Below are positions 36,036-53,832 of a stretch of DNA of 64,000 nucleotides, one piece after another. The DNA comes from a phage. Within the stretch, counting starts at the first letter, position 1; each line of letters opens with the position of its first letter. Below the pieces are notes generated by a model, which saw nothing but the letters and a program-made list of their open reading frames with translations, was not told the DNA's origin and made no database searches. The position numbers and the translations under genes are program-made. The stretch lies in NCBI GenBank assembly GCA_011911785.1, contig GCA_011911785.1_4084.1. The stretch is one strand, 5' to 3'.

Positions 36036-36263
36036 ATGAAAGTAATTTATGTTCAGGTTGAAAAATATCAAACTGAAGATGGTCGCATTTTTGATTCAGC
36101 TAAACAAGCTGAGCATCATGAACGTATTATTTCTGGTGTTCGTCGCATTTGTCCTAAATGTAACGGAACACAACAAGTTCCCGATGAAGAATTTCGTCGC
36201 TATTATGCATGTCCAGATTGTGATGGTAAAGGATATGTAGAAAAACAAGAGGTATGGAAGTGA
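36036..36263 (+). CDS. zinc-finger protein (DnaJ-type CxxCxGxG repeats)
   Basis: 75 aa; CPKCNGTQ and CPDCDGKG. Confidence 0.6.
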   Translation: MKVIYVQVEKYQTEDGRIFDSAKQAEHHERIISGVRRICPKCNGTQQVPDEEFRRYYACPDCDGKGYVEKQEVWK

Positions 36264-37878: not shown

Positions 37879-39297
37879 ATGAGCATTTTAGCAATTCTGG
37901 AACAAATCAAAAAGACTTCAAGTACACTTGGTAAGAAAGCAATCCTTGAAGAAAACAAAAACAATGAAACACTCAAAAAAGTACTGAAATATACGCTAGA
38001 CCCTACTATCGTAAGTGGCTATAAGAAGCTACCAGACGCTGCTGACGTGTATCAACATATGACGTTAGATGAAGCTATTGATAAGCTAGAATGCATCTAT
38101 AAGCGTGGTGTGACGGGTAATACGGGGCGTGATTTCATTGCTTCAGTACTGGGTTCCGTATCTGAAGATGATCAGGAAGTTCTCCGTAAAATGCTCACGA
38201 AGAACCTTGATTGTGGTATTCAGGAAAAGAACTGTAATGATGTATTCGGTAAAGGCTTTATTAAAGATGAACCTTATATGCGTTGTTCATTGATTGACAA
38301 GAAAACTGCTAAGAACATCAACTTCAAAGATTATGGTTATGCCGTTGCTGAAGTTAAGATGGATGGTCAGTACTTGAACCACGTTGTTATCAATGCATCA
38401 TTAACATCCACTTCCCGTAATGGTAAGATTTATGACTTCCTCGGTTGTCGTGATGCTGAAATGGCTGGACTTGCTCATCATATTCAAAGTACAGATGAAC
38501 GTTTCAGTAGTGGTGTAGTCTTTATGGGCGAGGGTTTAGTACTGGATACTGATGGGGAAACTATTCTTCCACGTACAACTGGTAACGGCATCATTCAGAA
38601 AGCAGGTAAAGATACTATCACCCAAAACGAAGCAATGCGTACAGTATTCGTTCTCTGGGATGTAGTGCCATATGATGCTTATTGTGCTGGTATCTGGGAT
38701 GTGAAACGTAAGGAACGTCGCGAGATTCTTGAAGGTGCAATCAATGCATTAGGTAGTGAATTCGTGCGTATGGTTGGATATCGTAAGGTGAAGGATCTCA
38801 AAGAAGCCTTTGCTTACAACTCTGAACTCATGAGTTCAGGTGAAGAAGGTTCAGTACTGAAATGTGAAGATGGTATCTGGAAATCTCATACTTCTCCTAA
38901 GCAGTTGAAAATGAAATTGAAAATGCAACTGGACTTGCGTATTGTTGGTTTCAATGAAGGTGAAGGTAAGCGTAAAGGTATGCTTGGTTCTTTACAACTG
39001 GAAAGTGCTTGTGGTACACTAAAAGTAAGCGTAGGAACAGGCATTAAAGAGAAAGATGCTGAATGGACATTTAAAACCATTTGGGAAAGAATGCAAGAAC
39101 TCATTGGTAAAGTTGTTACAATTGAGTGCAATGACGTAGTATATGATAAGCGTACTGGTGAACCGTCACTATTCTTACCAGTGTTTATTGAATTTAGATT
39201 TGACAAAAACACTTGTGACGATTATACTCGTATCTTAGAAATTCGCGATAGTGCAGTTGAGGTCTTCTCAAACAGTATTATTGAATCACTTGGCTAA
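37879..39297 (+). CDS. ATP-dependent DNA ligase (T4 gp30-like)
   Basis: 472 aa; N-terminus MSILAILEQIKKTSSTLGKKAILEENKNNETLKKV parallels T4 ligase; adenylation motif AEVKMDGQY (KxDG). Confidence 0.9.
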   Translation: MSILAILEQIKKTSSTLGKKAILEENKNNETLKKVLKYTLDPTIVSGYKKLPDAADVYQHMTLDEAIDKLECIYKRGVTGNTGRDFIASVLGSVSEDDQEVLRKMLTKNLDCGIQEKNCNDVFGKGFIKDEPYMRCSLIDKKTAKNINFKDYGYAVAEVKMDGQYLNHVVINASLTSTSRNGKIYDFLGCRDAEMAGLAHHIQSTDERFSSGVVFMGEGLVLDTDGETILPRTTGNGIIQKAGKDTITQNEAMRTVFVLWDVVPYDAYCAGIWDVKRKERREILEGAINALGSEFVRMVGYRKVKDLKEAFAYNSELMSSGEEGSVLKCEDGIWKSHTSPKQLKMKLKMQLDLRIVGFNEGEGKRKGMLGSLQLESACGTLKVSVGTGIKEKDAEWTFKTIWERMQELIGKVVTIECNDVVYDKRTGEPSLFLPVFIEFRFDKNTCDDYTRILEIRDSAVEVFSNSIIESLG

Positions 39298-39316
39298 ACA
39301 TTTATTGGAGGTAATT

Positions 39317-40108
39317 ATGAAATTTGTCGTAACATCTGATGTGCACGGTGGCACTGATTACCTCCACAGTGGTGATTACAGTGATACAGTACTGATCATT
39401 GCAGGGGATTTCGATGAAGTTAAACGCAGCCGTTATCGTACTGGTATCGAATCACTGTGTAAGCAGTTCAAGAATGTAGTACTGGTTCCTGGCAACCACG
39501 AGTACTACGGTTCGAACATTTACAAAACGCATCAAGTACTGTCCGATATGCAAGATGAGTTTCCTAATTTCATCTTTTTGCAAAACAAATTTGTATGGCT
39601 GGATGGTGTTTTGCTCGTTGGTAGTACTCTGTGGACAGACTTTGACAAAGGTAATTCCATGACGAAGTTTGATGCTCGTCAGAAGATGAACGATTACAAA
39701 CACATCCGTCATGGAACAACATCCGAGCCTTGGCGTAAGAAACTGACACCAGAAGATACTGAGTTCATGCATCACAAAGATAAACAATTTATCAAAAATT
39801 CAGTTGACACAGTACGCTTAATGCAGGATAATGATTTCAAGGTCATCGTGATTACCCATCACGCACCGAGTTTTCAAAGTGTTTCACCAAAATATAAAAA
39901 CGATTCACTGAATGGTTGTTACTGTTCAGACATGGATCAGTACATTGAAGATTTGGGTGCTGATGTTTGGATTCATGGTCATGTTCATAGTAGCTTTGAT
40001 TACCACATCGGTAAGACACGTATCATTTGTAATCCAAGAGGTTACGAATCTTATAGTGGAGCTTGTGAGAATTTCGATTACAATCCTAAATTGGTATTCG
40101 AAATCTAA
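39317..40108 (+). CDS. calcineurin-like metallophosphoesterase
   Basis: Start at ATG 39317 after GGAGG RBS; TSDVHG, AGDFDE, VPGNHEY, ITHHAP, HGHVH motifs. Confidence 0.75.
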   Translation: MKFVVTSDVHGGTDYLHSGDYSDTVLIIAGDFDEVKRSRYRTGIESLCKQFKNVVLVPGNHEYYGSNIYKTHQVLSDMQDEFPNFIFLQNKFVWLDGVLLVGSTLWTDFDKGNSMTKFDARQKMNDYKHIRHGTTSEPWRKKLTPEDTEFMHHKDKQFIKNSVDTVRLMQDNDFKVIVITHHAPSFQSVSPKYKNDSLNGCYCSDMDQYIEDLGADVWIHGHVHSSFDYHIGKTRIICNPRGYESYSGACENFDYNPKLVFEI

Positions 40109-40513: not shown

Positions 40514-40896
40514 TGAAAATTATTACTGTGTACACAATTGTATATAATAACGAAATCAAGTACGTGTTAAATGCAAACTTACACCACACTAGAGGTGAAA
40601 CAAAGTTACAACAGAACAGTACAGAAATCTCTCACTACTGGCTGGATGATGATTCAGTTGAAGTGTATATTGATGGTCGTGCTGAATACTATGATGCAGT
40701 TTTCTTTGAAGATTTAGATAAATCGAACGAATTCTTCATTTATGTCAGTACTGACCAATATTATACGCATTCTTTGTTTGACATTACCAACACTTCTGTG
40801 TATGATACAGGTATGGTTAGGTTACTGAAGATAGACCCAACTCTGTACAACAAAGAAACAATTTACGGTTTACTAGATTTTACAAGAAAATTGTAG
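40513..40896 (+). CDS. hypothetical protein
   Basis: 127 aa ORF. Confidence 0.55.
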   Translation: MKIITVYTIVYNNEIKYVLNANLHHTRGETKLQQNSTEISHYWLDDDSVEVYIDGRAEYYDAVFFEDLDKSNEFFIYVSTDQYYTHSLFDITNTSVYDTGMVRLLKIDPTLYNKETIYGLLDFTRKL

Positions 40897-40921
40897 ACAA
40901 ATACGAACACTGTGATATAAT
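40894..40921 (+). promoter_or_regulatory. sigma70-like promoter with extended -10
   Basis: TAGACA (40894-40899), 16-nt spacer, TGATATAAT (TATAAT 40916-40921); about 35 nt upstream of ClpP-like gene. Confidence 0.55.
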
Positions 40922-40956
40922 ACTCACATCAATGAAACAATAGAGGAAAATATACA

Positions 40957-41652
40957 ATGACTCAACAATTTATGTTTGGTGGTTATGCGAATGGTGAAAC
41001 AACTAACATTTCAATTCCATATGTAGTTGAAAAAGTTAATGGCAACGAACGTACTTATGATCTAGCATCTCGTATGATGCAAGACCGTATCATTTTCCTT
41101 GATACTGATTTCAACGACCAGATGGCACATATCATCAAGCAACAATTGGTGTGGTTGGATTCTCAAGGTTCTGAACCAATTACTCTTTATATTTCCTCGC
41201 CGGGTGGTAGTGTTCATGCAGGTTTGGGTATTTCTGATATTGCTAAATCTTGTGTATCACCAATCCGCACAGTAGTGATGGGTTATGCAGCATCAATGGG
41301 TTGCTACACACAATCAGTAGTGGGTACTAAAGGTTATCGTCTTGGTGGTAAACGCTCGTACTTTATGTGTCACCAAGTAAGTTCTGGTACACAAGGTCTG
41401 ATCACTGATCAGAAAATTGCACTAAAACACTCTGATGCATTGAACACATTGCTGACGAAAGAAATCGCTGAAGCTGTAGGTGTTTCTCATGAAAAACTAC
41501 TAGAAGATGCGGACCGCGATTTGTGGTTGAGTGCAGATGAAGCACTTGAGTATGGTGAACTTGGATTTATCGATGGTATTATCCTTGGTCCACGTAATGA
41601 AAAAGGTCAATACCTAGTTAAACGTCGCGGTGGCGTGGAAGAGTGGGTATAA
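40957..41652 (+). CDS. ClpP-family serine protease
   Basis: 231 aa; RIIFL, YISSPGGSV, GYAASMGC (Ser), FMCHQV (His) in ClpP order. Confidence 0.85.
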   Translation: MTQQFMFGGYANGETTNISIPYVVEKVNGNERTYDLASRMMQDRIIFLDTDFNDQMAHIIKQQLVWLDSQGSEPITLYISSPGGSVHAGLGISDIAKSCVSPIRTVVMGYAASMGCYTQSVVGTKGYRLGGKRSYFMCHQVSSGTQGLITDQKIALKHSDALNTLLTKEIAEAVGVSHEKLLEDADRDLWLSADEALEYGELGFIDGIILGPRNEKGQYLVKRRGGVEEWV

Positions 41653-41679
41653 TTCAGTACTAAAAACTTAAAATATATT

Positions 41680-41704
41680 ATGCCTCACTATGTGGGGCAT
41701 TTTC
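41680..41704 (+). terminator. rho-independent terminator
   Basis: Stem ATGCCTCAC/GTGGGGCAT (one wobble) then TTTT. Confidence 0.5.
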
Positions 41705-41716
41705 TAAGGAGTTAAA

Positions 41717-42010
41717 ATGTCAAAGAAACTTGTACGAAACTCTAGCACTGAAGAAGTTGAAATTCTTGATGATTCGGAATTCATCAGTACTGCACTAGAG
41801 CAGATCAGTACTCAAGCGTTAGCACTAAAAGACATTAATGAATCAGAAGACCTACTGGTTGGTATGGCTGAAATTCTTGAATTGATGCAAGAAGTTCTTA
41901 TGAAGAACAATATTAAACCAATTGATGCAGTGCAATATGCTGCAAATTTGCGAGCCGAACACGGTTCATTCAACGAGAAAAAAGCTGTCAGCACAGAAGA
42001 TAAGGAATAA
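41717..42010 (+). CDS. hypothetical acidic protein
   Basis: 97 aa ORF. Confidence 0.55.
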   Translation: MSKKLVRNSSTEEVEILDDSEFISTALEQISTQALALKDINESEDLLVGMAEILELMQEVLMKNNIKPIDAVQYAANLRAEHGSFNEKKAVSTEDKE

Positions 42011-42015
42011 TACAA

Positions 42016-42461
42016 TGGCTAATGAACAACACAAAGAAGGTTATGACGCGTTTAAAAACAAAGTAGTTTTTAACAATGAACAGCTAAAATCACAGCACCC
42101 ACTATTCCGTCAAGGCTATCGTGCTGCACAAGCTGACGCAATGAAGAAAAACAATGTAACCTTCCCAACTACATTGTTTGATATTCCTAAACGTCCTGAA
42201 GTGTTTAAGGCTGATTGGACTGATATTATGGCAGCAACTAAACGACCACGTTTTGCAAAACTACATACCGACGAAGGTAAATGGCTGCTAATGGGTATCA
42301 TGAAAGCTGTTGAAAAACGTGCACATACTATTGTCCGTTATCGTGATGTTGTTACTATGGTAGATGAAGCATTTGATATTGTACTTCAGTACGGCTACGA
42401 TGAAGGTGTATTAACTGTTGAAGATTGTCAACAATATAACTATACACCGACCGAAAAGTGA
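42016..42461 (+). CDS. hypothetical protein
   Basis: Start moved to ATG 42016 (MANEQHK) with AAGGAA RBS; track start 41922 overlaps upstream gene. Confidence 0.55.
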
Positions 42462-44332: not shown

Positions 44333-44589
44333 CAATGGTATATTTGTTTCTAGGTTGTATTGTTATATTTGTATTGTTTGCTATCTATTGTTTAGTTGAT
44401 ACTGATTATTCAATGCGTGGTAATAAGAATTATCAAGTACGTTTTTCCCCGCATAATAACAAGTACTACATTGTGAATGTTATCCACACTACTGGTCGTG
44501 AAATGAAAGTAACTGGTAGATTTGGCTTTACAATTTACTATGATAACCAAATTGATGTTGATTATGTTGTTGAAAAGTTAAATAAATGA
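44329..44589 (+). CDS. small membrane protein
   Basis: 86 aa with N-terminal hydrophobic helix. Confidence 0.5.
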   Translation: MTMVYLFLGCIVIFVLFAIYCLVDTDYSMRGNKNYQVRFSPHNNKYYIVNVIHTTGREMKVTGRFGFTIYYDNQIDVDYVVEKLNK

Positions 44590-44594
44590 GAAAA

Positions 44595-44616
44595 GGAGCC
44601 TATGGCTCCTTTTTTA
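44595..44616. terminator. terminator between convergent genes
   Basis: Stem GGAGCC/GGCTCC, loop TAT, then TTTTTTATT. Confidence 0.65.
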
Positions 44617-45048: not shown

Positions 45049-47475
45049 TTAAGCACTGATTGTTACAGTTGCAGTATCAGTTTTATTGCCATTCGCAGTA
45101 GTCACTGTAATGACTACAGTACCTTCTTCTAGAGCAGTTACTAATCCATCATCACTAATAGATACTTTAGTAGGTTCATCTGCACTATAAGTTACTGATT
45201 TGTTAGTTGCGTTAGCTGGAAGAACTTCTGGAACTAGTTGAACTGTTTTAGTACCTGATAGTGAAAGATCAGTGGCTTTAGGTGTTAAACCAACGCTGGA
45301 TACTGGTACTGGAATATTAACAGTTACAGCACATTTTGCAGTTTTTGCACCATCAGTAGTTTTTACAGTGATATCAGCAGTACCGTTTGCAACAGCAGTG
45401 ATTAAACCACTTGCACTAACAGTTGCGACACCAGCAGCAGAAGTACTATAAGTTACTGCTTTGTTAGTTGCATTAGCTGGTAGTACAGTTGGTGTTAGTT
45501 GTTGAGTTGCACCAACAGATGTTAAAGTTGCTGTTGTTGGAGAAACAGAAACACTAGCTACAGGAACTGGGATTGACACAGTAATGACACCTTGACCTGT
45601 TTTACCACTTCCATCAGCGGCAGTTGCGATAATGTTTGCAGTACCGTTAGTTAACGCAGTTACAACACCAGTACTAGCATCAACTTTCGCTACAGCAGGT
45701 GCACTAGAAGACCATGTTACAGCTTTATTAGTTGCGTTAGCTGGAAGAACTTCAGCAGCCATTGCTTGAGTTGCGTTAACAGCAGTCAATGTTTTAGTTG
45801 CTGGTGTAACATTAATAGTTGTTACTGGAACTGGAATTGCTACAGTTACTGCACAAACCGCAGTTTTTGCACCATCAGCGGTTGTTACGGTGATGTTAGC
45901 AGTGCCATTTGCTACAGCAGTTATCAATCCTGAAGTGCTAACAGTTGCTACACCCGCATTAGAAGTACTATAAGTTACTGCTTTATTGGTTGCATTAGTT
46001 GGTGCAACCGATGGTGTTAGTTGTTGTGTTGCACCAACAGATTTTAAAGTTGCTGTTGTTGGAGAAACAGAAACACCAGTTACTGGTACTGGAATATTAA
46101 CAGTTACAGCACAAACTTTACTAAAGCCACCATCAGCAGTAGTAGCCGTGATATTAGCAGTGCCATTCGCTACCGCAGTGATTAAACCACTTGTACTAAC
46201 GGTTGCAACACCAGCAGCAGAAGTTGCGTATGTTACTGCTTTGTTACGAGCATTAGCTGGTAGAACAGTTGCAGTTAATTGCTGTGTTGCACCAACAGAA
46301 GTTAATGAAGCGGTTGCAGGTGTTAGGTTAATACCAGTTACTGGGATCGTCACATCAATAATTGATTGTGCGGTTTTTTCACCATCAATAGTTGTTACGG
46401 TAATAGTGGCAGTACCATTATTAACAGAAGTTACTAAACCGTCATCATCAACTTCTGCTACTGTAGGTGCAGAAGATTCATAACGAACTTCCTGATTTGA
46501 TGCAGTTCTTGGTAGTACCGTTGCTGTTAATGGTTCATTTGCACCAATAGTAGTGAATGTATATGTTTCAGGTGTTAACGTAACACCAGTTACTGCTGTT
46601 TGAACTTTAATAGAAGAAGTATCAGTAAATGAACCATCTTCAGATGTTGCAGTAATAGTAACATCACCATTGGATACACCTGTTACCAACCCAGAATCTT
46701 TATCAACTGTTGCAACGGATGGAGCAGATGAAGTCCATGTAACTTTCTTGTCTGTTGCTGAGGCCGGAGTAACTTCAGCTAACAATTGTTGAGTTGCCCC
46801 AACGTTTACAGTTGCAGTTTTAGGAGAAACGGTAACACCAGTAACACCAGTACTGACAACGATAGAACACACATCTGTGAAATCACCATCGTGAGTTGTT
46901 ACGGTTACATCAGCATTGCCATTTGCAAGTGCAGTTGCTAGACCTGTTTGAGCATCAACTTCAACGATTGTAGGAGCAGATGAAGAGTAGGTTACGGTCT
47001 TGTCTTTTGCATTAGATGGAACTACTTGGGCTGATAGTTGTTTTGTTGCACCAACTTTAAGAGATGCATCTTTGGGTGTAATTACAACACCAGTTACGGG
47101 GATATCAGCATTAACATAATCGCGTTTTACGATACGACCATTATTTAATTTAATAACACGACCCATATAAAGCATAGTATATCCCATACTAATACCATCA
47201 TCAACATAGATCATGAATGAATTGTCTTGAACCATATTAATTGCGTCTGCTGGCTCAACAGAATTTGGAATGTCGATACCACGAGTATCATACCAACGCA
47301 TGGAAACTTTGTAATAGATATCACCATTATCATTGATGAGATCATACACGTTACCGGAACGTTGACGGTTAATATATAAAGTTTCGGTTAACACCTTACC
47401 ATCGATTTTAGCGACAGAAACTTTAATACCACCAATACCAAAAGGCAATTTACCTTCACTAGATATTGCTTTCAT
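45049..47475 (-). CDS. virion surface/fiber-like protein with tandem bacterial Ig-like (Big_2-type) domains
   Basis: 808 aa; conserved N-terminal ~125 aa module, then about 8 repeats of ...VTGV.V.P.TAT...GATQQL.A.V.P..AT.K.VT..SS...VATV... Confidence 0.8.
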   Translation of the reverse strand: MKAISSEGKLPFGIGGIKVSVAKIDGKVLTETLYINRQRSGNVYDLINDNGDIYYKVSMRWYDTRGIDIPNSVEPADAINMVQDNSFMIYVDDGISMGYTMLYMGRVIKLNNGRIVKRDYVNADIPVTGVVITPKDASLKVGATKQLSAQVVPSNAKDKTVTYSSSAPTIVEVDAQTGLATALANGNADVTVTTHDGDFTDVCSIVVSTGVTGVTVSPKTATVNVGATQQLLAEVTPASATDKKVTWTSSAPSVATVDKDSGLVTGVSNGDVTITATSEDGSFTDTSSIKVQTAVTGVTLTPETYTFTTIGANEPLTATVLPRTASNQEVRYESSAPTVAEVDDDGLVTSVNNGTATITVTTIDGEKTAQSIIDVTIPVTGINLTPATASLTSVGATQQLTATVLPANARNKAVTYATSAAGVATVSTSGLITAVANGTANITATTADGGFSKVCAVTVNIPVPVTGVSVSPTTATLKSVGATQQLTPSVAPTNATNKAVTYSTSNAGVATVSTSGLITAVANGTANITVTTADGAKTAVCAVTVAIPVPVTTINVTPATKTLTAVNATQAMAAEVLPANATNKAVTWSSSAPAVAKVDASTGVVTALTNGTANIIATAADGSGKTGQGVITVSIPVPVASVSVSPTTATLTSVGATQQLTPTVLPANATNKAVTYSTSAAGVATVSASGLITAVANGTADITVKTTDGAKTAKCAVTVNIPVPVSSVGLTPKATDLSLSGTKTVQLVPEVLPANATNKSVTYSADEPTKVSISDDGLVTALEEGTVVITVTTANGNKTDTATVTISA

Positions 47476-47511
47476 ATACTTTCCTTTATAAATTGTATTG
47501 TAGTGTTATAT

Positions 47512-47519
47512 TATTTATA
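47512..47519 (-). promoter_or_regulatory. T4-type late promoter (TATAAATA)
   Basis: Minus strand reads TATAAATA about 37 nt upstream of ATG at 47475. Confidence 0.4.
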
Positions 47520-47542
47520 TTATACCAAAAGTATTTTAGGAT

Positions 47543-47567
47543 TAAAAAAAGGAGTCCGAAGACTCCT
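47543..47567 (-). terminator. rho-independent terminator (minus strand)
   Basis: On minus strand: hairpin AGGAGTC-TTCG-GACTCCT followed by T7; lies downstream of gene 47580..49283. Confidence 0.6.
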
Positions 47568-47579
47568 TAAAATATAAAG

Positions 47580-49283
47580 TTATTGGAAACGAGCATACGG
47601 TGGAAATCTGGTTTGGTCAGGTTCATCTTGTTGGATTACACCGAATACAACAGGAACAGCAATAAATTTCTCATCTGGACAAATAACTTCAATTAATTGA
47701 CCACGCATTTTTACAAAATTATCAGTCATTATTGGAATTGTATAGTCGTATACACAGTCAACTGGTGTATAATTAACTGTAACATAACGTCTTTCATTAG
47801 GCGACATATCTGAAACTTTTGCAGGGTCTAACGAAATACCAGTCATTGGAGTACTAGTACAATTAATTATTAGTACATCTGAGTTAAAGTTTGCTGCTGA
47901 TGTAGGTGGACATACATACGACACAGTGACTGGAGAATATGGTTTAGTTGTACCAAAAAACTTCAATGTTAAATCTGTATTAGATGAACCATTGTGTTTT
48001 GCCACATCCGATGATGATTGCCAATGACCATCAGGAAGATATGAATATTCTGGAATTAACACATAATCAAATTTTACATTATTTTTGTTATACGATGATG
48101 TTGAAATATCCCCTTGTACTTTAATAGTATGTTTTTGGTCTGGGAATTTCAATCCAGTTGCTTTTGGTAATATACCAGATGCACGAACAGTGTTAGAAGA
48201 TACTTTTCCATCCAGAGATACCGCAGTAACCATGATTGAAGGTTGTGTTGGATTGTATGATGGTCCATCCCCAACTGGCTTAGTTTTAAAATATGCTCTT
48301 TCTGGAGTACTTTTATCTGCTAGATATACTAGATTCGGTGCATCATTGAACTTACAACCGTGGAATGTATTATCTGGAACATATGAGATATCAACATAAA
48401 ATTCATCACCAAAATTTAAAGTTCCAGGAACTGGATTTGATAGATTTATTATTTGAACTGATGGATAAGTTGTGTGGCATGTAAATGAAGCAGATGAACT
48501 ACCATCACTTGTGTGCCATGTAGAAACGACAGGAGTACTGGATTCTTCAATTACTGTAAAATGTGCACGGTATGGAGTACTGTCTGTTTCAAGACTCAAT
48601 ACATCTTTTGGGAAATCCCAATAACCACTTTCATTACCTAAGTATGGGTCATATAATATATCCACATAAAAATCAGTACCTTTTGGAGAAGACACTATTG
48701 ATGGATTAATTTTAACTTTAACATCAGGTTTGATAATATTACAGGTAACACCATCATAATCACCACCAACGTTACACACTAGTGTTTTAGGTTCACTATC
48801 TTTAGGTAAGACTAACGCTTTGAAATGAGCACGAGTGTCAGTACTGTCATTAATTTTCTCAAAATAAGTTGTATCAAATACCCAAGATGGATATCCTTTA
48901 TTCTTATCATATTCAACATCAATAAAGAAGTCATCCCCGACAATTACAGTAACATTCTTAGGTGTTAACTTAATTGGAACTGGTGCATCAGGATCAACAA
49001 CTGTAACATTACAAATTAGAGTTTGTGTTTTATCATAGGTTGGTACATATGAAACTGGAAATTTACCCGCTTTAATTGCAGTAAGGATTATCAGTGTTGG
49101 TGTTTCAGTGGTTGCAATTAAGCTTTTTTTATCATAATTCCAGTCCCCGACTTTCTGGTTATCAGGTGTATCAGAACTGAAATCTGCGAAAATTTGTTTA
49201 GTGTCACCAATTTTCATTTCCAAATGGGATGGATTTAATGTAACTGAAAACAAATTCTCTATATTTTTTACTTTCTTAGACAT
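47580..49283 (-). CDS. Ig-like repeat protein (putative virion fiber/adhesin)
   Basis: 567 aa; tandem ~90 aa repeats with G-D-x-F-x-[IV]-x-[IV]-x-Y-x-P ... R-A-H-F signature. Confidence 0.7.
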   Translation of the reverse strand: MSKKVKNIENLFSVTLNPSHLEMKIGDTKQIFADFSSDTPDNQKVGDWNYDKKSLIATTETPTLIILTAIKAGKFPVSYVPTYDKTQTLICNVTVVDPDAPVPIKLTPKNVTVIVGDDFFIDVEYDKNKGYPSWVFDTTYFEKINDSTDTRAHFKALVLPKDSEPKTLVCNVGGDYDGVTCNIIKPDVKVKINPSIVSSPKGTDFYVDILYDPYLGNESGYWDFPKDVLSLETDSTPYRAHFTVIEESSTPVVSTWHTSDGSSSASFTCHTTYPSVQIINLSNPVPGTLNFGDEFYVDISYVPDNTFHGCKFNDAPNLVYLADKSTPERAYFKTKPVGDGPSYNPTQPSIMVTAVSLDGKVSSNTVRASGILPKATGLKFPDQKHTIKVQGDISTSSYNKNNVKFDYVLIPEYSYLPDGHWQSSSDVAKHNGSSNTDLTLKFFGTTKPYSPVTVSYVCPPTSAANFNSDVLIINCTSTPMTGISLDPAKVSDMSPNERRYVTVNYTPVDCVYDYTIPIMTDNFVKMRGQLIEVICPDEKFIAVPVVFGVIQQDEPDQTRFPPYARFQ

Positions 49284-49295
49284 AATAGTTTTACC

Positions 49296-51185
49296 TCATC
49301 TATTATTGATTGTTAATATACAAGCATCTACTTTTGAATTTAACGTAATATACGTAATAGGTGTAGTAGTATCACCTGTAGATTTTAATGTTCTGAACTT
49401 TGCCTTATTAATTATACTACCATCATCTAGTCTCTCAACTAATGTATCATCGAACACCCATCTCCCTGCTGGATTTGCATCACTAGGTGTAAATGTTGCA
49501 ATAACATTAAACTCTTGATACAAATCTTTTGTTAGAGATTTTGGTGTTACAGCTACTGCTGTTGGTGACGGTTGTGCTTTAATAAGACAATATGCATCTG
49601 CACTTTTACCCTCCGAATTGTAAGTTATTTGTTGAAATTGATCTGATTCTTTTAGTGCTGTAAAATATCCAACGTCAGAGGTACTAATATCTTCTTTTTG
49701 GATGTAATTAGAATCATATGTCCAAGTTCCGCTATGGGCAGCAGTATCTGGTATATAATCTATGTTTATTGCAAATGTGGATGAAACAGTTACTGCTTGT
49801 GTTTGTGGTGAAAGTTTAATACTATCCAAGGGTTTATAGGGTGATATTCTACATATATTAGAATCATTTACGGATGCAGATGTATTTGATATAAATGTAA
49901 TAGTCATAGGGTCTGTATTATATTTCAATACTGTAAAAACACCACAATCATCAGTACTGGAATCGCTTAATTCAAATGTTTCTTTATCATATATCCATAT
50001 ACCACCATGAATGGAATAATCCGGTGTATAATTTACATTAATTTTAAAAGTATCACCTACATATACAGATTCAGTTTTCGGACTTAATGAAACACTACTT
50101 GGTGGTGTACTTGAATCGATTTTACATGTATTATACCCAATTCTATTAAGGGTTGAATATGATATTTGTAATGGTGTTGGAGTTTCATCTAAAACGAAGA
50201 ATCTTACATATTGACCAGCATTTGATTTATCTACCATACGAAGCTTTGTTGCATCATATAGCCATGTACCTAATGGATATGTACCAGGTGGATCGTATTC
50301 AACATTTATTGTGAAGTAGTCACCTTTTTTAACTTCTTCGGTTCCTGGTGAAAGTGTAATAGATTTAAGTTTTTGAATGTGGCATTTATTTTTAGCAGAT
50401 ACATTTCCAGAAACAAAGTAAGTTAAATCTATTCCTTCTGGTGGTGTTTCTTCTATTGCTTTAAAATGTGCTCTTACTGTTGAGTCAGTATCATTAATCA
50501 AAGATACTTTTGTTTGGTCATAGTTCCATATACCATTCTTTTCAGCATTACTTGGAACATATGTTATGTCAATATAAAAATCTTCATCTTCCGATACTAT
50601 TTCACTACTTGGGGATAGTATAACTTCTGACGCTTCTGTACTGGAAATATGACATTGGTTAGTGTCCTTAATATCATTGTATGAAAAAGATATTAATGTA
50701 GTTTGTTGTTCTGATGATATTACTTCAAATGTACCAACATCCATATCATCATTAATTAGTTTAAGCACTGCATGATCATATGTCCATTCACCAACATGTG
50801 GTGCATCATTTGGTGTGTAAGTCACATTTACATCAAATGTATCACCAAATGAAACAACTTCATTCTTAGGAGATAGCGTGATTTTTTCAAGTGGTGTTGT
50901 ATTAATATTCACATAGCAAACCCCTGATAGTAATGGATTTGTGTCTGGAATATAAGTTATTTTTGTTGATCCTTGTTTGAGTGCAGTGAATGAAAATGTA
51001 GTCGATGTAATATCAGGTGAATCACTACTAATAAATTCTGAATCATAAACCCACTTTCCTTTTTTATATGGATAGTTGACTGGATTGAAAACAACTTCTA
51101 ATACATCAGATTCTTGTATATCTATGTTTTCATACCTAGGTATAATTCTAACACTTATTAAAGTGTCGCTATTTTGATTAGTCAT
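49296..51185 (-). CDS. Ig-like repeat protein (putative virion fiber/adhesin)
   Basis: 629 aa; about 7 tandem repeats ...Y.P..A.H.G.W.YD...; 12 nt from downstream gene. Confidence 0.7.
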   Translation of the reverse strand: MTNQNSDTLISVRIIPRYENIDIQESDVLEVVFNPVNYPYKKGKWVYDSEFISSDSPDITSTTFSFTALKQGSTKITYIPDTNPLLSGVCYVNINTTPLEKITLSPKNEVVSFGDTFDVNVTYTPNDAPHVGEWTYDHAVLKLINDDMDVGTFEVISSEQQTTLISFSYNDIKDTNQCHISSTEASEVILSPSSEIVSEDEDFYIDITYVPSNAEKNGIWNYDQTKVSLINDTDSTVRAHFKAIEETPPEGIDLTYFVSGNVSAKNKCHIQKLKSITLSPGTEEVKKGDYFTINVEYDPPGTYPLGTWLYDATKLRMVDKSNAGQYVRFFVLDETPTPLQISYSTLNRIGYNTCKIDSSTPPSSVSLSPKTESVYVGDTFKINVNYTPDYSIHGGIWIYDKETFELSDSSTDDCGVFTVLKYNTDPMTITFISNTSASVNDSNICRISPYKPLDSIKLSPQTQAVTVSSTFAINIDYIPDTAAHSGTWTYDSNYIQKEDISTSDVGYFTALKESDQFQQITYNSEGKSADAYCLIKAQPSPTAVAVTPKSLTKDLYQEFNVIATFTPSDANPAGRWVFDDTLVERLDDGSIINKAKFRTLKSTGDTTTPITYITLNSKVDACILTINNR

Positions 51186-51206
51186 ATAATAACCTCCGGT
51201 ATAAAA

Positions 51207-51231
51207 GATGCCACCGAAATGGCATCTTTTT
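51207..51231. terminator. intra-operon hairpin / possible attenuator
   Basis: Stem GATGCCA/TGGCATC, loop CCGAAA, T-rich on both sides. Confidence 0.35.
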
Positions 51232-51243
51232 GTTTATTTGTAA

Positions 51244-53742
51244 TTAACGAATTATGAAACAGGTGGCATATGCTTCAGGTGGGGTTTGGTCAGGATTAAT
51301 TGGAGTACTGACAAATCTCATAGAGGTTGGACCTGTTGGAGCATTATCTTTAACTTTAAAGTGTGCAACATCCATAGTACTATCCTGTTGATATTCCAAT
51401 ATAGTTTCATCGACATACCATGTACCTTTATGTTGTGCACTTTCTGGTTCATATATAACTGTAACATAGAAATCACTTCCACTTGATGTTGGAATGCGGG
51501 ATGGTGTTATAGATACACTATCGGTGTTTGAAAATTCAATTGTACATGTATGCACTGCTTTATTTTTCCCATCACCATAATCATAAGTGATATCAGTATC
51601 CCCTGCCTCAACATTTTTTAAGACATAGAAACCAACTTCATCATGAGGGTAATCACTTGGCAAAAATGCAATCTTATCCATATCATAAGTCCATGTACCT
51701 TTATGTTTAGCATCGTCAGGATCGTAACTAACAACTATATTAATTGCGTCACCTGGTTTCAAGGTAGACTTCGGTGGAATTAATGAGATTGATTCAACGT
51801 CAGGATATTTCACTATACATTTATAATTCACTGGGTCAACACCATCTGGCTGGAATGAAAGAATTACACCATCTTCAGTTGTTGGTTTTAATGCTCTAAA
51901 CACAGTAACATCAGGAGTACATTTTTCTTTAACAAACTCAACGATGTCCGCTGGGTAGTTCCATTGTAGACGACCAGTATGTTGTGCAGTTAGAGGCATG
52001 TAGGTCATATTGATGGTAAATTCTTCACCAACTTCATGTGCACCATTATCGGGGGATATAGCAACACTGTCCAAATATGAATACCCAACTGTAATGTTAA
52101 ATGCAACAGCATTTTCCTCTTTCACACTTTCAGGAATAAAATAGACATTTGTTGATTTTGATGTTGATTTAGAACTCTTAACATACCCAACATCAGCAGT
52201 TGTTCCGGTCCCCATTGCTGCAACATCTTCATCTTCTATTTTCCATGTACCTGCATGTTTTGCTGTTTCTGGATTATAATTCACCTTAACAATACTGATA
52301 TCATCATACGAAATTACATCACTAGGTGGTGTATAGGAATACGATATCAAATCAGAATAATCTATTTTACAAGGATAAGAATACTTAGAATATCCAGAAT
52401 CGAAAGTTAGATTAATTGTATCATTTGGTAATCCTGCGGCAAATGTGGATTTAAGGGAAGAGAATGTATATAGATCATCTTGTGGTGCACCTGAAAGTTT
52501 CACATATTGTTCAACATCTTGTATATCCCAAATACCACTATGTCTAGCAGTGTCTGGATTATATTTCACTTTAACATTGAATACATCTAGTGCTTTGATT
52601 TCTTTTGATGGGGGATCAAATTCTATTGAAATTAAATCCGAATAGTCAGGAACTATATTGATTGCGTTTGATTGAACCCCACCAGATGATTGGAAATATA
52701 TTGGTAATGCTGAATCGAACGGTTTGATAGTACTGAAATATCCACGGGTATCAGTTGATTTAGCAGATTCAAATTTGAAATGCTCTTCATCAAAAACCCA
52801 TTTACCAGTTTTGTTTGCAGACGCTGGTTCGAATACCATATCAATGAAAAAGCCATTTGGTACTTTGACGATCTTATCATCGGATTGTGCTGTAATTGAT
52901 TTAACTGGTGAATAAGTTACAGTAACGTTACATTCAGCTTTTGCTTTATCATTACAAATATAGCTAATAGTACTGGCAGTTTGTGGTGGTGTACTTTTAA
53001 GTGCAATGAAGGTTGCACCATCTAAGCCACTTTTTGTTTCATTAAGACTGAAGACTTCCTCATCATATTTCCAAATTCCCATTTTATCCGCAGTTGTTGG
53101 ATCATATGTTAATGCTAGATAGAATGATTCACCAACTTCACAACTTACTGTTTGTGGGTCAATTGTAACTGAATTGATTGGGTTATTAGTTAAGAAGTAA
53201 TTACATTCTGCACTTACTGAACCTACTGATGCAGTTATTTTACCATTACAAGGGTCGGTTGATATAACATTAAACAATCCAGATTTTCTAGAACTAAGCA
53301 TTGGCACTAACGCAATTTGTGTGTTATCATAATCCCATACTGGTACGTCTATACCATTATCGGGTGAATATTCCACTTCAATGGTGAATTTATTAGGACT
53401 AAGCCCCGATGTCATTAAACTTGGGGTGAGTTTCATTGAACTCACTGATTGGTTTAATACTGTAATTGTACAAGTCGCTGATGATGATTTATTATCATCT
53501 GGTGTAAATGTAATGGTTGCTGTTCCTGTTTTTAGAGCAGTATAATCACATTGTAAACCACTTCTATATCCTATTTTAACAACGTCAGGATTATCACAAT
53601 CCCATTGACCTGCTTTATGTGTCCATGATTGTGGTTCATAGACTACGTTTAATTCAGATGTATCGTTAACATAGACCACTGAAGACCTACCTTCCTTAAA
53701 ATGAACGGAACGCAATGTTTCGAATTGATTTGTATTTTTCAT
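51244..53742 (-). CDS. Ig-like repeat protein (putative virion fiber/adhesin)
   Basis: 832 aa; about 9 tandem repeats of the same Y-x-P-x-x-A-x-H-x-G-x-W domain. Confidence 0.7.
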   Translation of the reverse strand: MKNTNQFETLRSVHFKEGRSSVVYVNDTSELNVVYEPQSWTHKAGQWDCDNPDVVKIGYRSGLQCDYTALKTGTATITFTPDDNKSSSATCTITVLNQSVSSMKLTPSLMTSGLSPNKFTIEVEYSPDNGIDVPVWDYDNTQIALVPMLSSRKSGLFNVISTDPCNGKITASVGSVSAECNYFLTNNPINSVTIDPQTVSCEVGESFYLALTYDPTTADKMGIWKYDEEVFSLNETKSGLDGATFIALKSTPPQTASTISYICNDKAKAECNVTVTYSPVKSITAQSDDKIVKVPNGFFIDMVFEPASANKTGKWVFDEEHFKFESAKSTDTRGYFSTIKPFDSALPIYFQSSGGVQSNAINIVPDYSDLISIEFDPPSKEIKALDVFNVKVKYNPDTARHSGIWDIQDVEQYVKLSGAPQDDLYTFSSLKSTFAAGLPNDTINLTFDSGYSKYSYPCKIDYSDLISYSYTPPSDVISYDDISIVKVNYNPETAKHAGTWKIEDEDVAAMGTGTTADVGYVKSSKSTSKSTNVYFIPESVKEENAVAFNITVGYSYLDSVAISPDNGAHEVGEEFTINMTYMPLTAQHTGRLQWNYPADIVEFVKEKCTPDVTVFRALKPTTEDGVILSFQPDGVDPVNYKCIVKYPDVESISLIPPKSTLKPGDAINIVVSYDPDDAKHKGTWTYDMDKIAFLPSDYPHDEVGFYVLKNVEAGDTDITYDYGDGKNKAVHTCTIEFSNTDSVSITPSRIPTSSGSDFYVTVIYEPESAQHKGTWYVDETILEYQQDSTMDVAHFKVKDNAPTGPTSMRFVSTPINPDQTPPEAYATCFIIR

Positions 53743-53832
53743 TATATAATCTCCTATAAATGAATTTGTATTATGGGGAACTTATAATTAAGCTCCCCGT
53801 CGAACGAGTTTATATTATACACCTCCGATATT

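What the first reader, a model, noticed from the sequence alone, without database searches (positions are those of the whole stretch)
40894..41652. Stand-alone ClpP-family protease under its own strong promoter, with no obvious capsid-gene context
Phage ClpP-like proteases are usually prohead maturation proteases adjacent to portal/capsid genes. Here the ClpP homologue sits in the early/middle-type region under a near-consensus promoter (TAGACA-16-TGATATAAT) and ends at its own terminator. It may pair with host ClpX/ClpA to redirect host proteolysis rather than process capsids.
Basis: partly seen in the sequence, partly recalled or inferred. Interest (0 to 1): 0.5.

Follow-up and report, generated by a model that had tools for sequence, protein, structure and literature searches.

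The report
Jumbo-phage ClpP, not a capsid protease
This gene of an Asteriusvirus-type jumbo coliphage encodes a true ClpP-type protease core that is not the capsid-maturation enzyme. It most likely works with the phage's own ClpA-like unfoldase, a pairing visible in public annotations but never tested.

Summary
ORF 40957-41652 encodes a 231-aa ClpP-family protein (Pfam PF00574, E 7.7e-42). It is 100% identical to A4_455 of Escherichia phage A4, a 355-kb Asteriusvirus. A near-consensus sigma-70 promoter with an extended -10 precedes it, and a conserved hairpin with a weak T-tract follows it.

It is not a prohead protease. It groups with cellular ClpPs (41-46% identity) and is split from ClpP-related head-maturation proteases (19-23%) with 100% bootstrap. 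It keeps the Ser-His-Asp triad and the N-terminal axial-loop residues. In A4, a T4 gp21-type S77 protease sits between portal and major capsid genes about 125 kb away.

The suggested pairing with host ClpX/ClpA is not the best reading. These phages encode their own 761-762-aa ClpA-like unfoldase (43% identical to E. coli ClpA). It has a ClpP-docking-type loop, and in the loci examined only its promoter shares the TAGACA -35 variant with the clpP promoter. It co-occurs with ClpP across RaK2-like phages but lies outside the window.

A phage-encoded ClpAP protease acting on host or phage proteins is most likely; substrates are unknown. The gene is already deposited, and comparative papers have discussed jumbo-phage ClpP. 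Interest is modest.

The parts
40894..40899 (+). -35 element TAGACA of the clpP promoter
   Evidence: The same -35 variant lies upstream of the phage clpA-like gene in A4 and PBECO4.
40913..40921 (+). Extended -10 element TG-a-TATAAT, part of the 11-mer TGTGATATAAT at 40911-40921
   Evidence: The exact 11-mer occurs once in the window. It is conserved in A4 and vB_Ec-M-J; PBECO4 keeps GTGATATAAT.
40943..40947 (+). Ribosome-binding site GAGGA, 9 nt before the ATG
   Evidence: Read directly from the sequence; conserved in the Asteriusvirus alignment.
40957..41652 (+). clpP-type gene, 231 aa. Residues 1-19 are an N-terminal leader. The axial-loop hairpin is at about residues 21-35. Catalytic residues are S113, H139 and D188. 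A clade-specific ordered C-terminal extension spans about 207-231.
   Evidence: Pfam E 7.7e-42. PDB ClpPs at E 1e-37. Invariant residues. AF2 model pLDDT 91.7. Foldseek target-normalised TM-score 0.91-0.96 to bacterial ClpPs. dN/dS 0.03-0.09. 100% identical to A4_455.
41680..41705 (+). Hairpin ATGCCTCAC-TAT-GTGGGGCAT followed by TTTCT: a weak intrinsic terminator or RNA-stability element. The next gene's RBS follows directly.
   Evidence: The 71-nt stretch 41650-41720 containing it folds at -15.1 kcal/mol, z -2.7. The scan did not call it because the T-tract is weak. The position is conserved in vB_Ec-M-J, PBECO4 and RaK2, with a different stem in RaK2.
41717..42010 (+). Conserved downstream gene, 97 aa, phrog_16159. 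Some relatives annotate it as an NTP pyrophosphohydrolase.
   Evidence: The order clpP, this gene, then the next gene is kept in A4, vB_Ec-M-J, PBECO4, RaK2, CBB and Munch.
42015..42461 (+). Conserved downstream gene, 148 aa, phrog_16190, unknown function
37879..40108 (+). Conserved upstream context: ATP-dependent DNA ligase (37879-39297) and metallophosphoesterase (ends 40108). This is nucleic-acid metabolism, not morphogenesis.
   Evidence: Pfam hits. The same order is seen in A4, CBB and Munch.

Best explanation
The gene encodes a catalytically competent ClpP-type serine peptidase subunit. By homology it should assemble into a barrel-shaped, self-compartmentalised protease. It plays no part in capsid maturation, which in this phage group is done by a T4 gp21-type (S77) protease in the head module.

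Its most likely partner is the phage's own ClpA-like double-ring AAA+ unfoldase, encoded about 90 kb away in the nearest relative and outside this window. Together they would form a phage-encoded ClpAP protease. Both genes sit behind the same strong sigma-70-type promoter (TAGACA-16-TGTGATATAAT), so host RNA polymerase should transcribe them before the late, phage-sigma-dependent phase. The complex would then unfold and degrade selected host or phage proteins during infection.

Shown here: family membership, catalytic and axial-loop residues, fold, purifying selection, genomic separation from the head genes, existence and integrity of the phage ClpA-like gene, and the shared promoter variant.

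Inferred: tetradecamer assembly, physical pairing with the phage ClpA-like protein, expression timing and substrates.
For: 1. True ClpP. Pfam PF00574 at E 7.7e-42. NCBIfam cellular ClpP models give 156-158 bits, against 52 bits for the ClpP-related head-maturation model. Best PDB sequence hits are bacterial ClpPs at E 1e-37, aligned from the IPYVVE N-terminus to the C-terminus. The AF2 model (pLDDT 91.7) superposes on bacterial ClpPs at target-normalised TM-score 0.91-0.96, rmsd 1.0-2.0 A.

2. Functional residues. S113, H139 and D188, plus the R187 sensor, are invariant. The axial-loop residues equivalent to E. coli P4, V6, E8, E14, R15, D18 and R22 are kept in the RaK2-like phage ClpPs and nearly all of the wider clade, and are absent from prohead proteases. 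dN/dS is 0.03-0.09.

3. Phylogeny. Head-maturation proteases split from all ClpPs with 100% bootstrap. The window protein sits in a 13-member jumbo-phage clade (98%) next to cellular ClpPs.

4. A separate capsid protease. In A4 the order is portal, Peptidase_S77 (E 2.5e-21), scaffold, Gp23-type capsid protein at 210-216 kb, while clpP is at 88 kb. PBECO4 is arranged the same way. Published virion proteomes of RaK2 and phAPEC6 detected the S77-type protease in virions, and the CBB paper identifies its T4 gp21 homologue (CBB_255) by sequence (PMC3622015, PMC5259590, PMC7247149).

5. A phage partner. A4_579 and PBECO4 gp539 have Clp_N (weak Pfam hit, seen for gp539), AAA, AAA_lid_9, AAA_2 and ClpB_D2-small domains. 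A4_579 is 43% identical to E. coli ClpA over 733 aa. Walker A/B motifs and the KYRG and GYVG pore loops are intact. The docking loop reads SLGL (A4), SIGM (PBECO4), SLGM (CBB), SIGV (Muenster) and SIGF (PA5oct), against SIGL in E. coli.

6. Co-occurrence. Both genes appear in the same phage groups with near-equal record counts: Escherichia 34/33, Klebsiella 10/11, Erwinia 8/8, Pseudomonas 11/11.

7. Shared promoter. TAGACA-N15-17-TATAAT occurs only upstream of clpP and the clpA-like gene in 277.6 kb of window, A4 and PBECO4 sequence.
Against: - No experiment or transcript data exist for any RaK2-like ClpP, as far as the literature searches show.
- The clpA-like gene is not in the window. Its presence in this exact genome is inferred from relatives.
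- The score is below NCBIfam's ClpP equivalog cut-offs (156.6 against 308.6), so this is a divergent ClpP.
- The docking pocket is remodelled relative to E. coli ClpP (F82 to S, F112 to L, L114 to G). Munch's ClpA loop reads SMNM, which departs from the canonical motif.
- The shared promoter type is not exclusive. A MoxR-like ATPase gene in PBECO4 has a very similar extended -10 and initial transcribed region. PBECO4's own clpP promoter has TGGACA rather than TAGACA.
- The two genes are not adjacent.
- ClpP was reported in virion preparations of CBB (1 peptide, 4.5% coverage) and is flagged 'ESI-MS/MS' in the PA5oct record.
Confidence: 0.6

Rival explanations
1. One reading: the phage ClpP docks with host ClpX and/or ClpA, or co-assembles with host ClpP heptamers, and so redirects or blocks host Clp proteolysis. 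This could act alone or in addition to the phage ClpA-like partner.
For: The axial-loop residues that contact the unfoldase are the same as in E. coli ClpP, and Y62 of the pocket is kept. The phage clpA-like gene is distant, and some other huge phages such as the Lak phages show ClpP among hits without an obvious ClpA-like hit in the listed rows. Iyer et al. 2021 (PMC7824862) proposed that jumbo-phage ClpP targets host proteins and that other phages use ClpS to exploit host ClpAP.
Against: A dedicated phage ClpA-like unfoldase with a docking loop co-occurs with ClpP throughout the clade and shares its promoter variant. The protein is only 34.5% identical to host ClpP. Pocket positions F82, F112 and L114 are changed, and a conserved, ordered 25-residue C-terminal extension is added near where partners dock. 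No ClpS or ClpX homologue was found in the window or in the fetched A4 and PBECO4 loci.
Confidence: 0.22
2. Database label: it is a head maturation (prohead) protease of the ClpP-related type. RefSeq annotates it this way for PBECO4, CBB and fHe-Yen9-04, and PHROG 94 carries that label.
For: phrog_94 'head maturation protease' at E 1.2e-44. RefSeq product names. One peptide of the CBB orthologue was found in a virion preparation.
Against: NF045542 scores 52 bits against a cut-off of 120. The prohead clade is separated with 100% bootstrap and shares only 19-23% identity. The gene lies among DNA ligase, phosphoesterase and dCMP deaminase genes, about 125 kb from the head module. A T4 gp21-type S77 protease sits between the portal and capsid genes. 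The word 'Clp' does not occur in the phAPEC6 paper, whose virion table lists 62 proteins including the S77 protease. It keeps the unfoldase-facing axial loop that prohead proteases lack.
Confidence: 0.03
3. It is a virion-packaged or otherwise partner-independent protein. It could be an ejected protease acting on entry, or a ClpP-shaped decoy that soaks up host unfoldases, rather than the core of an ATP-dependent protease.
For: MS detection in CBB virions (1 peptide) and the 'ESI-MS/MS' flag on PA5oct ClpP. A structured C-terminal extension of unknown role.
Against: The triad is intact under strong purifying selection, which argues against a pure decoy. Detection in virions is marginal and inconsistent, with no mention in the phAPEC6 paper, and PA5oct ClpP belongs to a different ClpP lineage. 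A sigma-70 promoter rather than a late-gene context argues against a structural component.
Confidence: 0.07

Closest known systems
Bacterial ClpAP / ClpP (MEROPS S14, Pfam PF00574; e.g. E. coli ClpP with ClpA, and S. aureus, T. thermophilus and S. pneumoniae ClpP structures)
   Same: Same fold (target-normalised TM-score 0.91-0.96). Same Ser-His-Asp triad, Arg-Asp oligomerisation sensor and N-terminal axial hairpin residues. A short N-terminal leader comparable to the E. coli propeptide. The ClpA-type partner in the same genome has both AAA+ rings and a docking loop.
   Different: Only 34.5% identical to host ClpP and 41-46% to the nearest cellular ClpPs. Below NCBIfam equivalog cut-offs. Pocket positions F82, F112 and L114 are replaced. 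There is a 3-residue insert after EYG and a conserved ordered C-terminal extension of about 25 residues. The genes for protease and unfoldase are about 90 kb apart and phage-borne.
ClpP-related head maturation proteases of tailed phages (NCBIfam NF045542; Pseudomonas phage D3 orf5, Streptococcus phage Sfi21 orf221)
   Same: Same broad ClpP/crotonase superfamily and catalytic Ser and His. They are lumped with ClpP in PHROG 94 and share the RefSeq label.
   Different: 19-23% identity and a separate clade with 100% support. No axial-loop region. Always encoded between portal and major capsid genes. The window gene meets none of these.
T4 gp21-type prohead protease (Pfam Peptidase_S77)
   Same: It is the enzyme that performs head maturation in this phage group: A4_8, PBECO4 gp520, RaK2 gp092, CBB_255, phAPEC6 gp227c.
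   Different: Unrelated fold and family. It is located in the head module about 125 kb from clpP in A4.
ClpP genes of other huge phages (PA5oct, Atu_ph07, Lak phages, Bacillus phage G), discussed by Iyer et al. 2021 (PMC7824862) and Attai et al. 2018 (PMC6102473)
   Same: Phage-borne, non-morphogenetic ClpP, often alongside ClpA, ClpX or ClpS and DnaJ-type genes. Proposed, but not shown, to act on host proteins.
   Different: PA5oct ClpP is a different lineage: 48% identical to E. coli ClpP, 34% to this one, with a canonical IGF loop in its ClpA. The RaK2/Asteriusvirus clade has its own C-terminal extension and a remodelled pocket.

Membership tests
[quoted passage not shown] | Profile match above the family threshold | tested here: met
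   PF00574 at 143.7 bits against a cut-off of 20.2, covering 178 of 182 profile positions.
[quoted passage not shown] | Equivalence to bacterial ClpP by NCBIfam equivalog or subfamily cut-offs | tested here: not met
   TIGR00493 gives 156.6 bits against 308.6; NF001368 gives 158.1 against 249. It is a divergent member, not an orthologue-level match.
[quoted passage not shown] | Ser-His-Asp catalytic triad and Arg-Asp oligomerisation sensor | tested here: met
   S113, H139, D188 and R187 are invariant in 60 sequences.
[quoted passage not shown] | N-terminal axial loop that gates the pore and contacts the unfoldase | tested here: met
   Equivalents of E. coli P4, V6, E8, E14, R15, D18 and R22 are all present. 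A hairpin is predicted at residues 22-35.
[quoted passage not shown] | ClpP fold | tested here: met
   AF2 pLDDT 91.7. Foldseek to bacterial ClpPs gives target-normalised TM-score 0.91-0.96 and rmsd 1.0-2.0 A.
[quoted passage not shown] | Hydrophobic pocket for IGF/IGL docking loops. The residue list comes from my own knowledge of E. coli ClpXP structures. | tested here: inconclusive
   Y62 is kept and the positions remain mostly hydrophobic, but F82 becomes S, F112 becomes L, L114 becomes G and L23/L24 become M/M.
[quoted passage not shown] | AAA+ partner with a docking loop available in the same cell | tested here: met
   The phage ClpA-like protein in the nearest relative A4 has the loop SLGL, and PBECO4 has SIGM. 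Host ClpX and ClpA are also present in E. coli. The gene is not in the window itself.
[quoted passage not shown] | Tetradecamer assembly and unfoldase-dependent proteolysis | not testable with these tools
   This needs biochemistry or multimer modelling.
ClpP-related head maturation protease (NF045542; PHROG 94 label) | Profile match above cut-off | tested here: not met
   NF045542 scores 52.4 bits against a cut-off of 120.
ClpP-related head maturation protease (NF045542; PHROG 94 label) | Gene located between the portal and major capsid (or scaffold) genes | tested here: not met
   Neighbours are DNA ligase, a phosphoesterase and small ORFs. No head-gene homologue is found in the window. The head module is about 125 kb away in A4.
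ClpP-related head maturation protease (NF045542; PHROG 94 label) | Phylogenetic placement with known prohead proteases | tested here: not met
   100% bootstrap split between D3/Sfi21-type proteases and all ClpPs, including this one.
ClpP-related head maturation protease (NF045542; PHROG 94 label) | It is the phage's capsid-processing enzyme | tested here: not met
   A Peptidase_S77 (T4 gp21-type) protease occupies that role and position. That protease was detected in RaK2 and phAPEC6 virions, and CBB's gp21 homologue is identified by sequence.

The most novel reading that the evidence does not exclude
The RaK2/Asteriusvirus phages carry an orthogonal, self-sufficient ClpAP machine. The ClpP has a remodelled docking pocket (F82S, F112L, L114G) and an ordered C-terminal extension. 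It would be matched to a phage ClpA whose docking loop has drifted to LGL, IGM or LGM, so the pair would be insulated from host ClpX, ClpA and ClpP. Both genes would be switched on together from a shared promoter variant. The machine would destroy specific host proteins, such as defence or stress-response factors, or clear early phage proteins at the switch to late development.
Probability: 0.3. Interest if true: 0.6.

Novelty: already known. Interest (0 to 1): 0.33.

Why it matters
The gene is deposited: it is 100% identical to A4_455, which is annotated as a Clp protease. Comparative papers have also noted jumbo-phage ClpP and ClpA genes. The finding is therefore not new as an object.

Three points have practical value.
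- The widespread RefSeq/PHROG label 'head maturation protease' for this gene family is almost certainly wrong.
- The phage appears to carry a complete ClpA-ClpP pair, apparently co-regulated from a shared promoter variant, rather than a lone protease that must borrow host unfoldases.
- The clade has distinctive features at the partner-docking face: pocket substitutions and an ordered C-terminal extension.

If the pair is an orthogonal degradation machine, it would be a tractable example of a virus importing its own regulated-proteolysis system. It would also be a possible source of insulated protease and unfoldase parts. None of this has been tested experimentally.

Tried and rejected
- Prohead-protease reading. 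Rejected on HMM scores, tree, gene context and the presence of an S77 protease.
- ClpA-, ClpX- or ClpS-like genes in the window. None found.
- PBECO4 gp010 'ATPase' as a possible ClpX-like partner, because its promoter resembles the clpP promoter. There is no similarity to E. coli ClpX; it matches phrog_1297 'ATPase'.
- IMG/VR scan for TAGACAAA-N10-TGTGATATAAT. It returned 16 contigs, none similar to the window by blastn, so it said nothing about promoter specificity.
- T4-type late motif TATAAATA. Too rare near structural genes to define late promoters here, with a single copy in the window on the minus strand at 47519. A different motif, CAGTAC..AAATAATA, precedes two head genes and was not pursued.
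- PADLOC. No hit for ClpP. The ClpA-like protein gives only generic AAA+ hits.
- Literature. The phrase 'phage-encoded ClpP' returned nothing. Papers holding both 'ClpP' and 'jumbo phage' only list or speculate. The PA5oct supplementary tables on expression timing and virion MS are not held.
- First tree script timed out. It was redone with a faster neighbour-joining bootstrap. This is NJ on Kimura-corrected distances with a narrow prohead sample (D3-like plus Sfi21), not maximum likelihood.
It was rerun without them.
- Recent capture from the host. Rejected: 34.5% identity to E. coli ClpP and about 39% GC, like its neighbours.
Full report
**What the window is.** The region 40500-42100 matches Escherichia phage A4 (ON286972.1, 355,528 bp, genus Asteriusvirus) at 98.7% nucleotide identity. 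It matches some 30 other Asteriusvirus genomes at about 80-85%, and more distantly Erwinia, Salmonella and Serratia jumbo phages. The window is colinear with A4 at 98.4-98.9% over 20491-47621 and 58996-64000. It carries about 11.4 kb that A4 lacks at 47621-58996.

**The observation.**
- ORF 40957-41652 (+) encodes 231 aa. It is a ClpP-family protein: Pfam PF00574, E 7.7e-42, 178 of 182 profile positions. It is 100% identical to A4_455.
- The upstream gene stops at 40896. In the 60-nt gap lie TAGACA (40894-40899), a 16-nt spacer, TG-a-TATAAT (40913-40921) and GAGGA (40943-40947).
- The generic promoter scan finds no excess of promoter-like sites in the neighbourhood (40 against 43.1 in shuffles). 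This particular pattern occurs once in 64 kb against 0.09 expected.
- The promoter is conserved. It is identical in A4 and vB_Ec-M-J and retained as TGGACA-16-GTGATATAAT in PBECO4, although the surrounding sequence has diverged there.
- After the stop codon there is a 9-bp hairpin at 41680-41700. The 71-nt stretch 41650-41720 containing it folds at -15.1 kcal/mol, z -2.7, and 2 of 200 shuffles fold as well. Its tail is only TTTCT, which is why the terminator scan did not list it.
- A hairpin sits at the same position in vB_Ec-M-J, PBECO4 and RaK2, where the stem sequence is different. This suggests the structure is what is kept.
- In RaK2, CBB and Munch the gene follows its upstream neighbour by 13-22 nt with no promoter, and in CBB and Munch there is no hairpin. 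The 'own promoter and own terminator' arrangement is therefore real but specific to Asteriusvirus.

**Cellular-type ClpP or prohead protease?** Four independent tests agree on cellular-type ClpP.
1. NCBIfam. Cellular ClpP models score 156-158 bits. The 'head maturation protease, ClpP-related' model scores 52 bits against a cut-off of 120. All ClpP equivalog cut-offs are missed, so this is a divergent ClpP.
2. Solved structures. The best sequence matches are bacterial ClpPs at E about 1e-37, aligned from the IPYVVE N-terminus onward. An AF2 model (pLDDT 91.7) superposes on them at target-normalised TM-score 0.91-0.96.
3. Phylogeny. I built a neighbour-joining tree of 31 sequences (208 columns, 200 bootstraps). 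It included two textbook ClpP-like prohead proteases taken from between the portal and capsid genes: D3 orf5 and Sfi21 orf221. It also included five D3-like relatives. The prohead group separates from all ClpPs with 100% support. The window protein lies in a 13-member jumbo-phage and metagenome clade (98%) beside cellular ClpPs. Identities are 41-46% to cellular ClpPs, 34.5% to E. coli ClpP and 19-23% to prohead proteases.
4. Residues. The triad S113/H139/D188 and the R187 sensor are invariant. The axial-loop residues equivalent to E. coli P4, V6, E8, E14, R15, D18 and R22 are kept in the RaK2-like phage ClpPs and nearly all of the wider clade, and are missing from prohead proteases.

The gene is under strong purifying selection (dN/dS 0.03-0.09). 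Its GC content (about 39%) matches its neighbours, so it is not a recent capture from the host.

**Where capsid maturation is encoded.** The window has no homologue of portal, scaffold, capsid, terminase or S77 protease.
- In A4 the head module lies at 210-216 kb: portal (Portal_T4, 5e-114), A4_8 (Peptidase_S77, the T4 gp21 family, 2.5e-21), scaffold and major capsid protein (Gp23, 5e-90). clpP is at 88 kb. PBECO4 has the same arrangement.
- Published work identifies the gp21-type protease in RaK2 (gp092), CBB (CBB_255), PA5oct (gp152) and phAPEC6 (gp227c).
- The word 'Clp' does not occur in the phAPEC6 paper, whose virion table lists 62 proteins.
- The CBB orthologue was seen with one peptide at 4.5% coverage, and the PA5oct record flags its ClpP 'ESI-MS/MS'. 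Virion association is at best marginal.
- The RefSeq and PHROG label 'head maturation protease' is therefore best regarded as a mislabel.

**The partner.** The Atu_ph07 paper notes that ClpA is conserved in RaK2-like phages (PMC6102473).
- PBECO4 gp539 (762 aa) and A4_579 (761 aa) carry AAA, AAA_lid_9, AAA_2 and ClpB_D2-small domains; gp539 also gives a weak Clp_N hit.
- A4_579 is 43% identical to E. coli ClpA over 733 residues.
- Both Walker A/B pairs and the KYRG and GYVG pore loops are intact.
- At the position of the E. coli ClpA IGL docking tripeptide the phage proteins read SLGL (A4), SIGM (PBECO4), SLGM (CBB), SIGV (Muenster) and SIGF (PA5oct). Munch deviates with SMNM.
- The gene is not in the window. 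In A4 it lies at 178,050-180,335, on the opposite strand to its neighbours in the tail/baseplate module. That position is conserved in PBECO4, CBB, Munch and Muenster.
- tblastn shows ClpP and the ClpA-like protein in the same phage groups with near-equal record counts.

**Shared promoter.**
- Upstream of the clpA-like gene, A4 has ggTAGACAAActgaaagaaTGTGATATAAT and PBECO4 has tgTAGACAAAccgtaagaaTGTGATATAAT. The window's clpP promoter reads tgTAGACAAAtacgaacacTGTGATATAAT.
- In 277.6 kb of window, A4 and PBECO4 sequence, TAGACA-N15-17-TATAAT occurs only at these two genes.
- This suggests co-regulation but does not prove it. A MoxR-like ATPase gene in PBECO4 has a very similar extended -10 and initial transcribed region with a TTGACA -35. 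PBECO4's own clpP promoter has TGGACA.
- The related PA5oct depends on host RNA polymerase and uses TTGAC/TATAATA promoters (PMC7318152). These phages also encode a late sigma factor. I therefore infer pre-late transcription by host sigma-70 holoenzyme. No transcript data for an Asteriusvirus were found.

**Distinctive features of the clade.**
- Relative to E. coli ClpP, the positions I know to form the IGF/IGL pocket are partly changed: F82 to S, F112 to L, L114 to G, L23/L24 to M/M. Y62 is kept.
- There is a 3-residue insert after EYG and a C-terminal extension of about 25 residues (consensus G-x-x-N-x-x-G-x-x-x-V-x-R-R-x-G-x-x-x-W). It is conserved across the clade and predicted to be ordered, with pLDDT of 92 or higher.
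- PA5oct has a cellular-like ClpP and a canonical IGF loop in its ClpA. The RaK2-type clade combines the remodelled pocket with L, M or V at the third loop position. This is compatible with co-adaptation of the phage pair, but the sample is too small to be evidence.

**Interpretation.**
- Most likely (0.6): a phage-encoded ClpAP protease, non-morphogenetic, made before late development, acting on host or phage proteins.
- Host ClpX or ClpA as partner, alone or in addition, remains possible (0.22).
- The prohead reading is effectively excluded (0.03).
- A virion-borne or decoy role is unlikely (0.07).

**Novelty.** The gene and its ClpA-like companion are annotated in public records. Iyer et al. 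2021 already suggested that jumbo-phage ClpP targets host proteins and listed ClpA and ClpX as chaperones (PMC7824862). I found no experimental study. The finding is an already known object. The added value is in correcting the annotation, linking ClpP to the phage ClpA-like gene through the docking loop, co-occurrence and shared promoter, and pointing out the altered docking face.

Noticed in passing
window 59677-60279 (+): A 201-aa protein with a signal-peptide-like N-terminus. It matches phrog_26024 'protease' (2.4e-60) but has no Pfam, NCBIfam or PDB sequence hit. It is distantly similar to the ClpP (24% over 135 aa, E 5e-5). A4 annotates it as a 'ClpP/crotonase-like domain protein'. It may be an exported ClpP-fold protease.
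   Followed up: partly
window 60685-61284 (+): A 200-aa protein starting MTCIIAY. It matches phrog_1040 'peptidase HslV family' (3.6e-21) and weakly matches the NCBIfam HslV model. This is an Ntn-hydrolase or HslV-like protein, so the phage carries a third protease-like gene within 20 kb of clpP. No HslU-like partner was looked for.
   Followed up: partly
window 45049-58996 (-): A run of very long minus-strand ORFs (808, 567, 629 and 832 aa and more). The 808-aa ORF is visibly repetitive and rich in Ala, Thr and Val, resembling tandem Ig-like domains, though no domain search was run on it. About 11.4 kb of this run (47621-58996) is absent from phage A4. These may be variable virion decoration or fibre genes.
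   Followed up: partly
RefSeq records NC_027364, NC_041878, NC_042116 and several GenBank records (orthologues of window 40957-41652): The ClpP orthologue is labelled 'head maturation protease', apparently through PHROG 94. The same genomes have a T4 gp21-type S77 protease in the head module, so this is probably a systematic mis-annotation.
   Followed up: yes
L005 7343 and 10111 (A4, upstream of A4_7 and the major capsid gene); L003 1134 (PBECO4); window 41654-41665: The motif TTTTTTCAGTAC(N1-3)AAATAATA(N)CATAC lies about 50 nt upstream of two head genes and is a candidate late promoter. A partial copy, TTCAGTACTAAA, lies just after the clpP stop codon, and RaK2 has TTTAGTACTGAATAATT at the same place.
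   Followed up: partly
L002 11507-11517 (-) (PBECO4, upstream of gp010): The promoter of a MoxR-like ATPase gene (phrog_1297) reads TTGACA-16-TGTGATATAATgtTCACATCAAg. This is almost the same extended -10 and initial transcribed region as the clpP promoter (TGTGATATAATacTCACATCAAt), which hints at a small family of strong phage promoters.
   Followed up: partly
L004 18051-20336 (A4_579), with equivalents in PBECO4, CBB, Munch and Muenster: The clpA-like gene is always inserted on the opposite strand, between a structural gene and a structural gene of about 3,300 codons in the tail/baseplate module. It has its own promoter, and a strong hairpin terminator lies at its 3' end (L004 20341-20367).
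   Followed up: partly
window about 36040-36260 (A4_448 equivalent); A4_23 (L005 21163-21462): A4 annotates a small DnaJ-like J-domain protein about 5 kb upstream of clpP and a GroES co-chaperone elsewhere. With ClpA, ClpP and the HslV-like gene this looks like a phage proteostasis toolkit. It is known from annotation only.
   Followed up: no
window 44589-44615: A strong bidirectional terminator-like hairpin (12 pairs) with T-runs on both strands, between convergent genes at the boundary of the plus-strand gene block.
   Followed up: no
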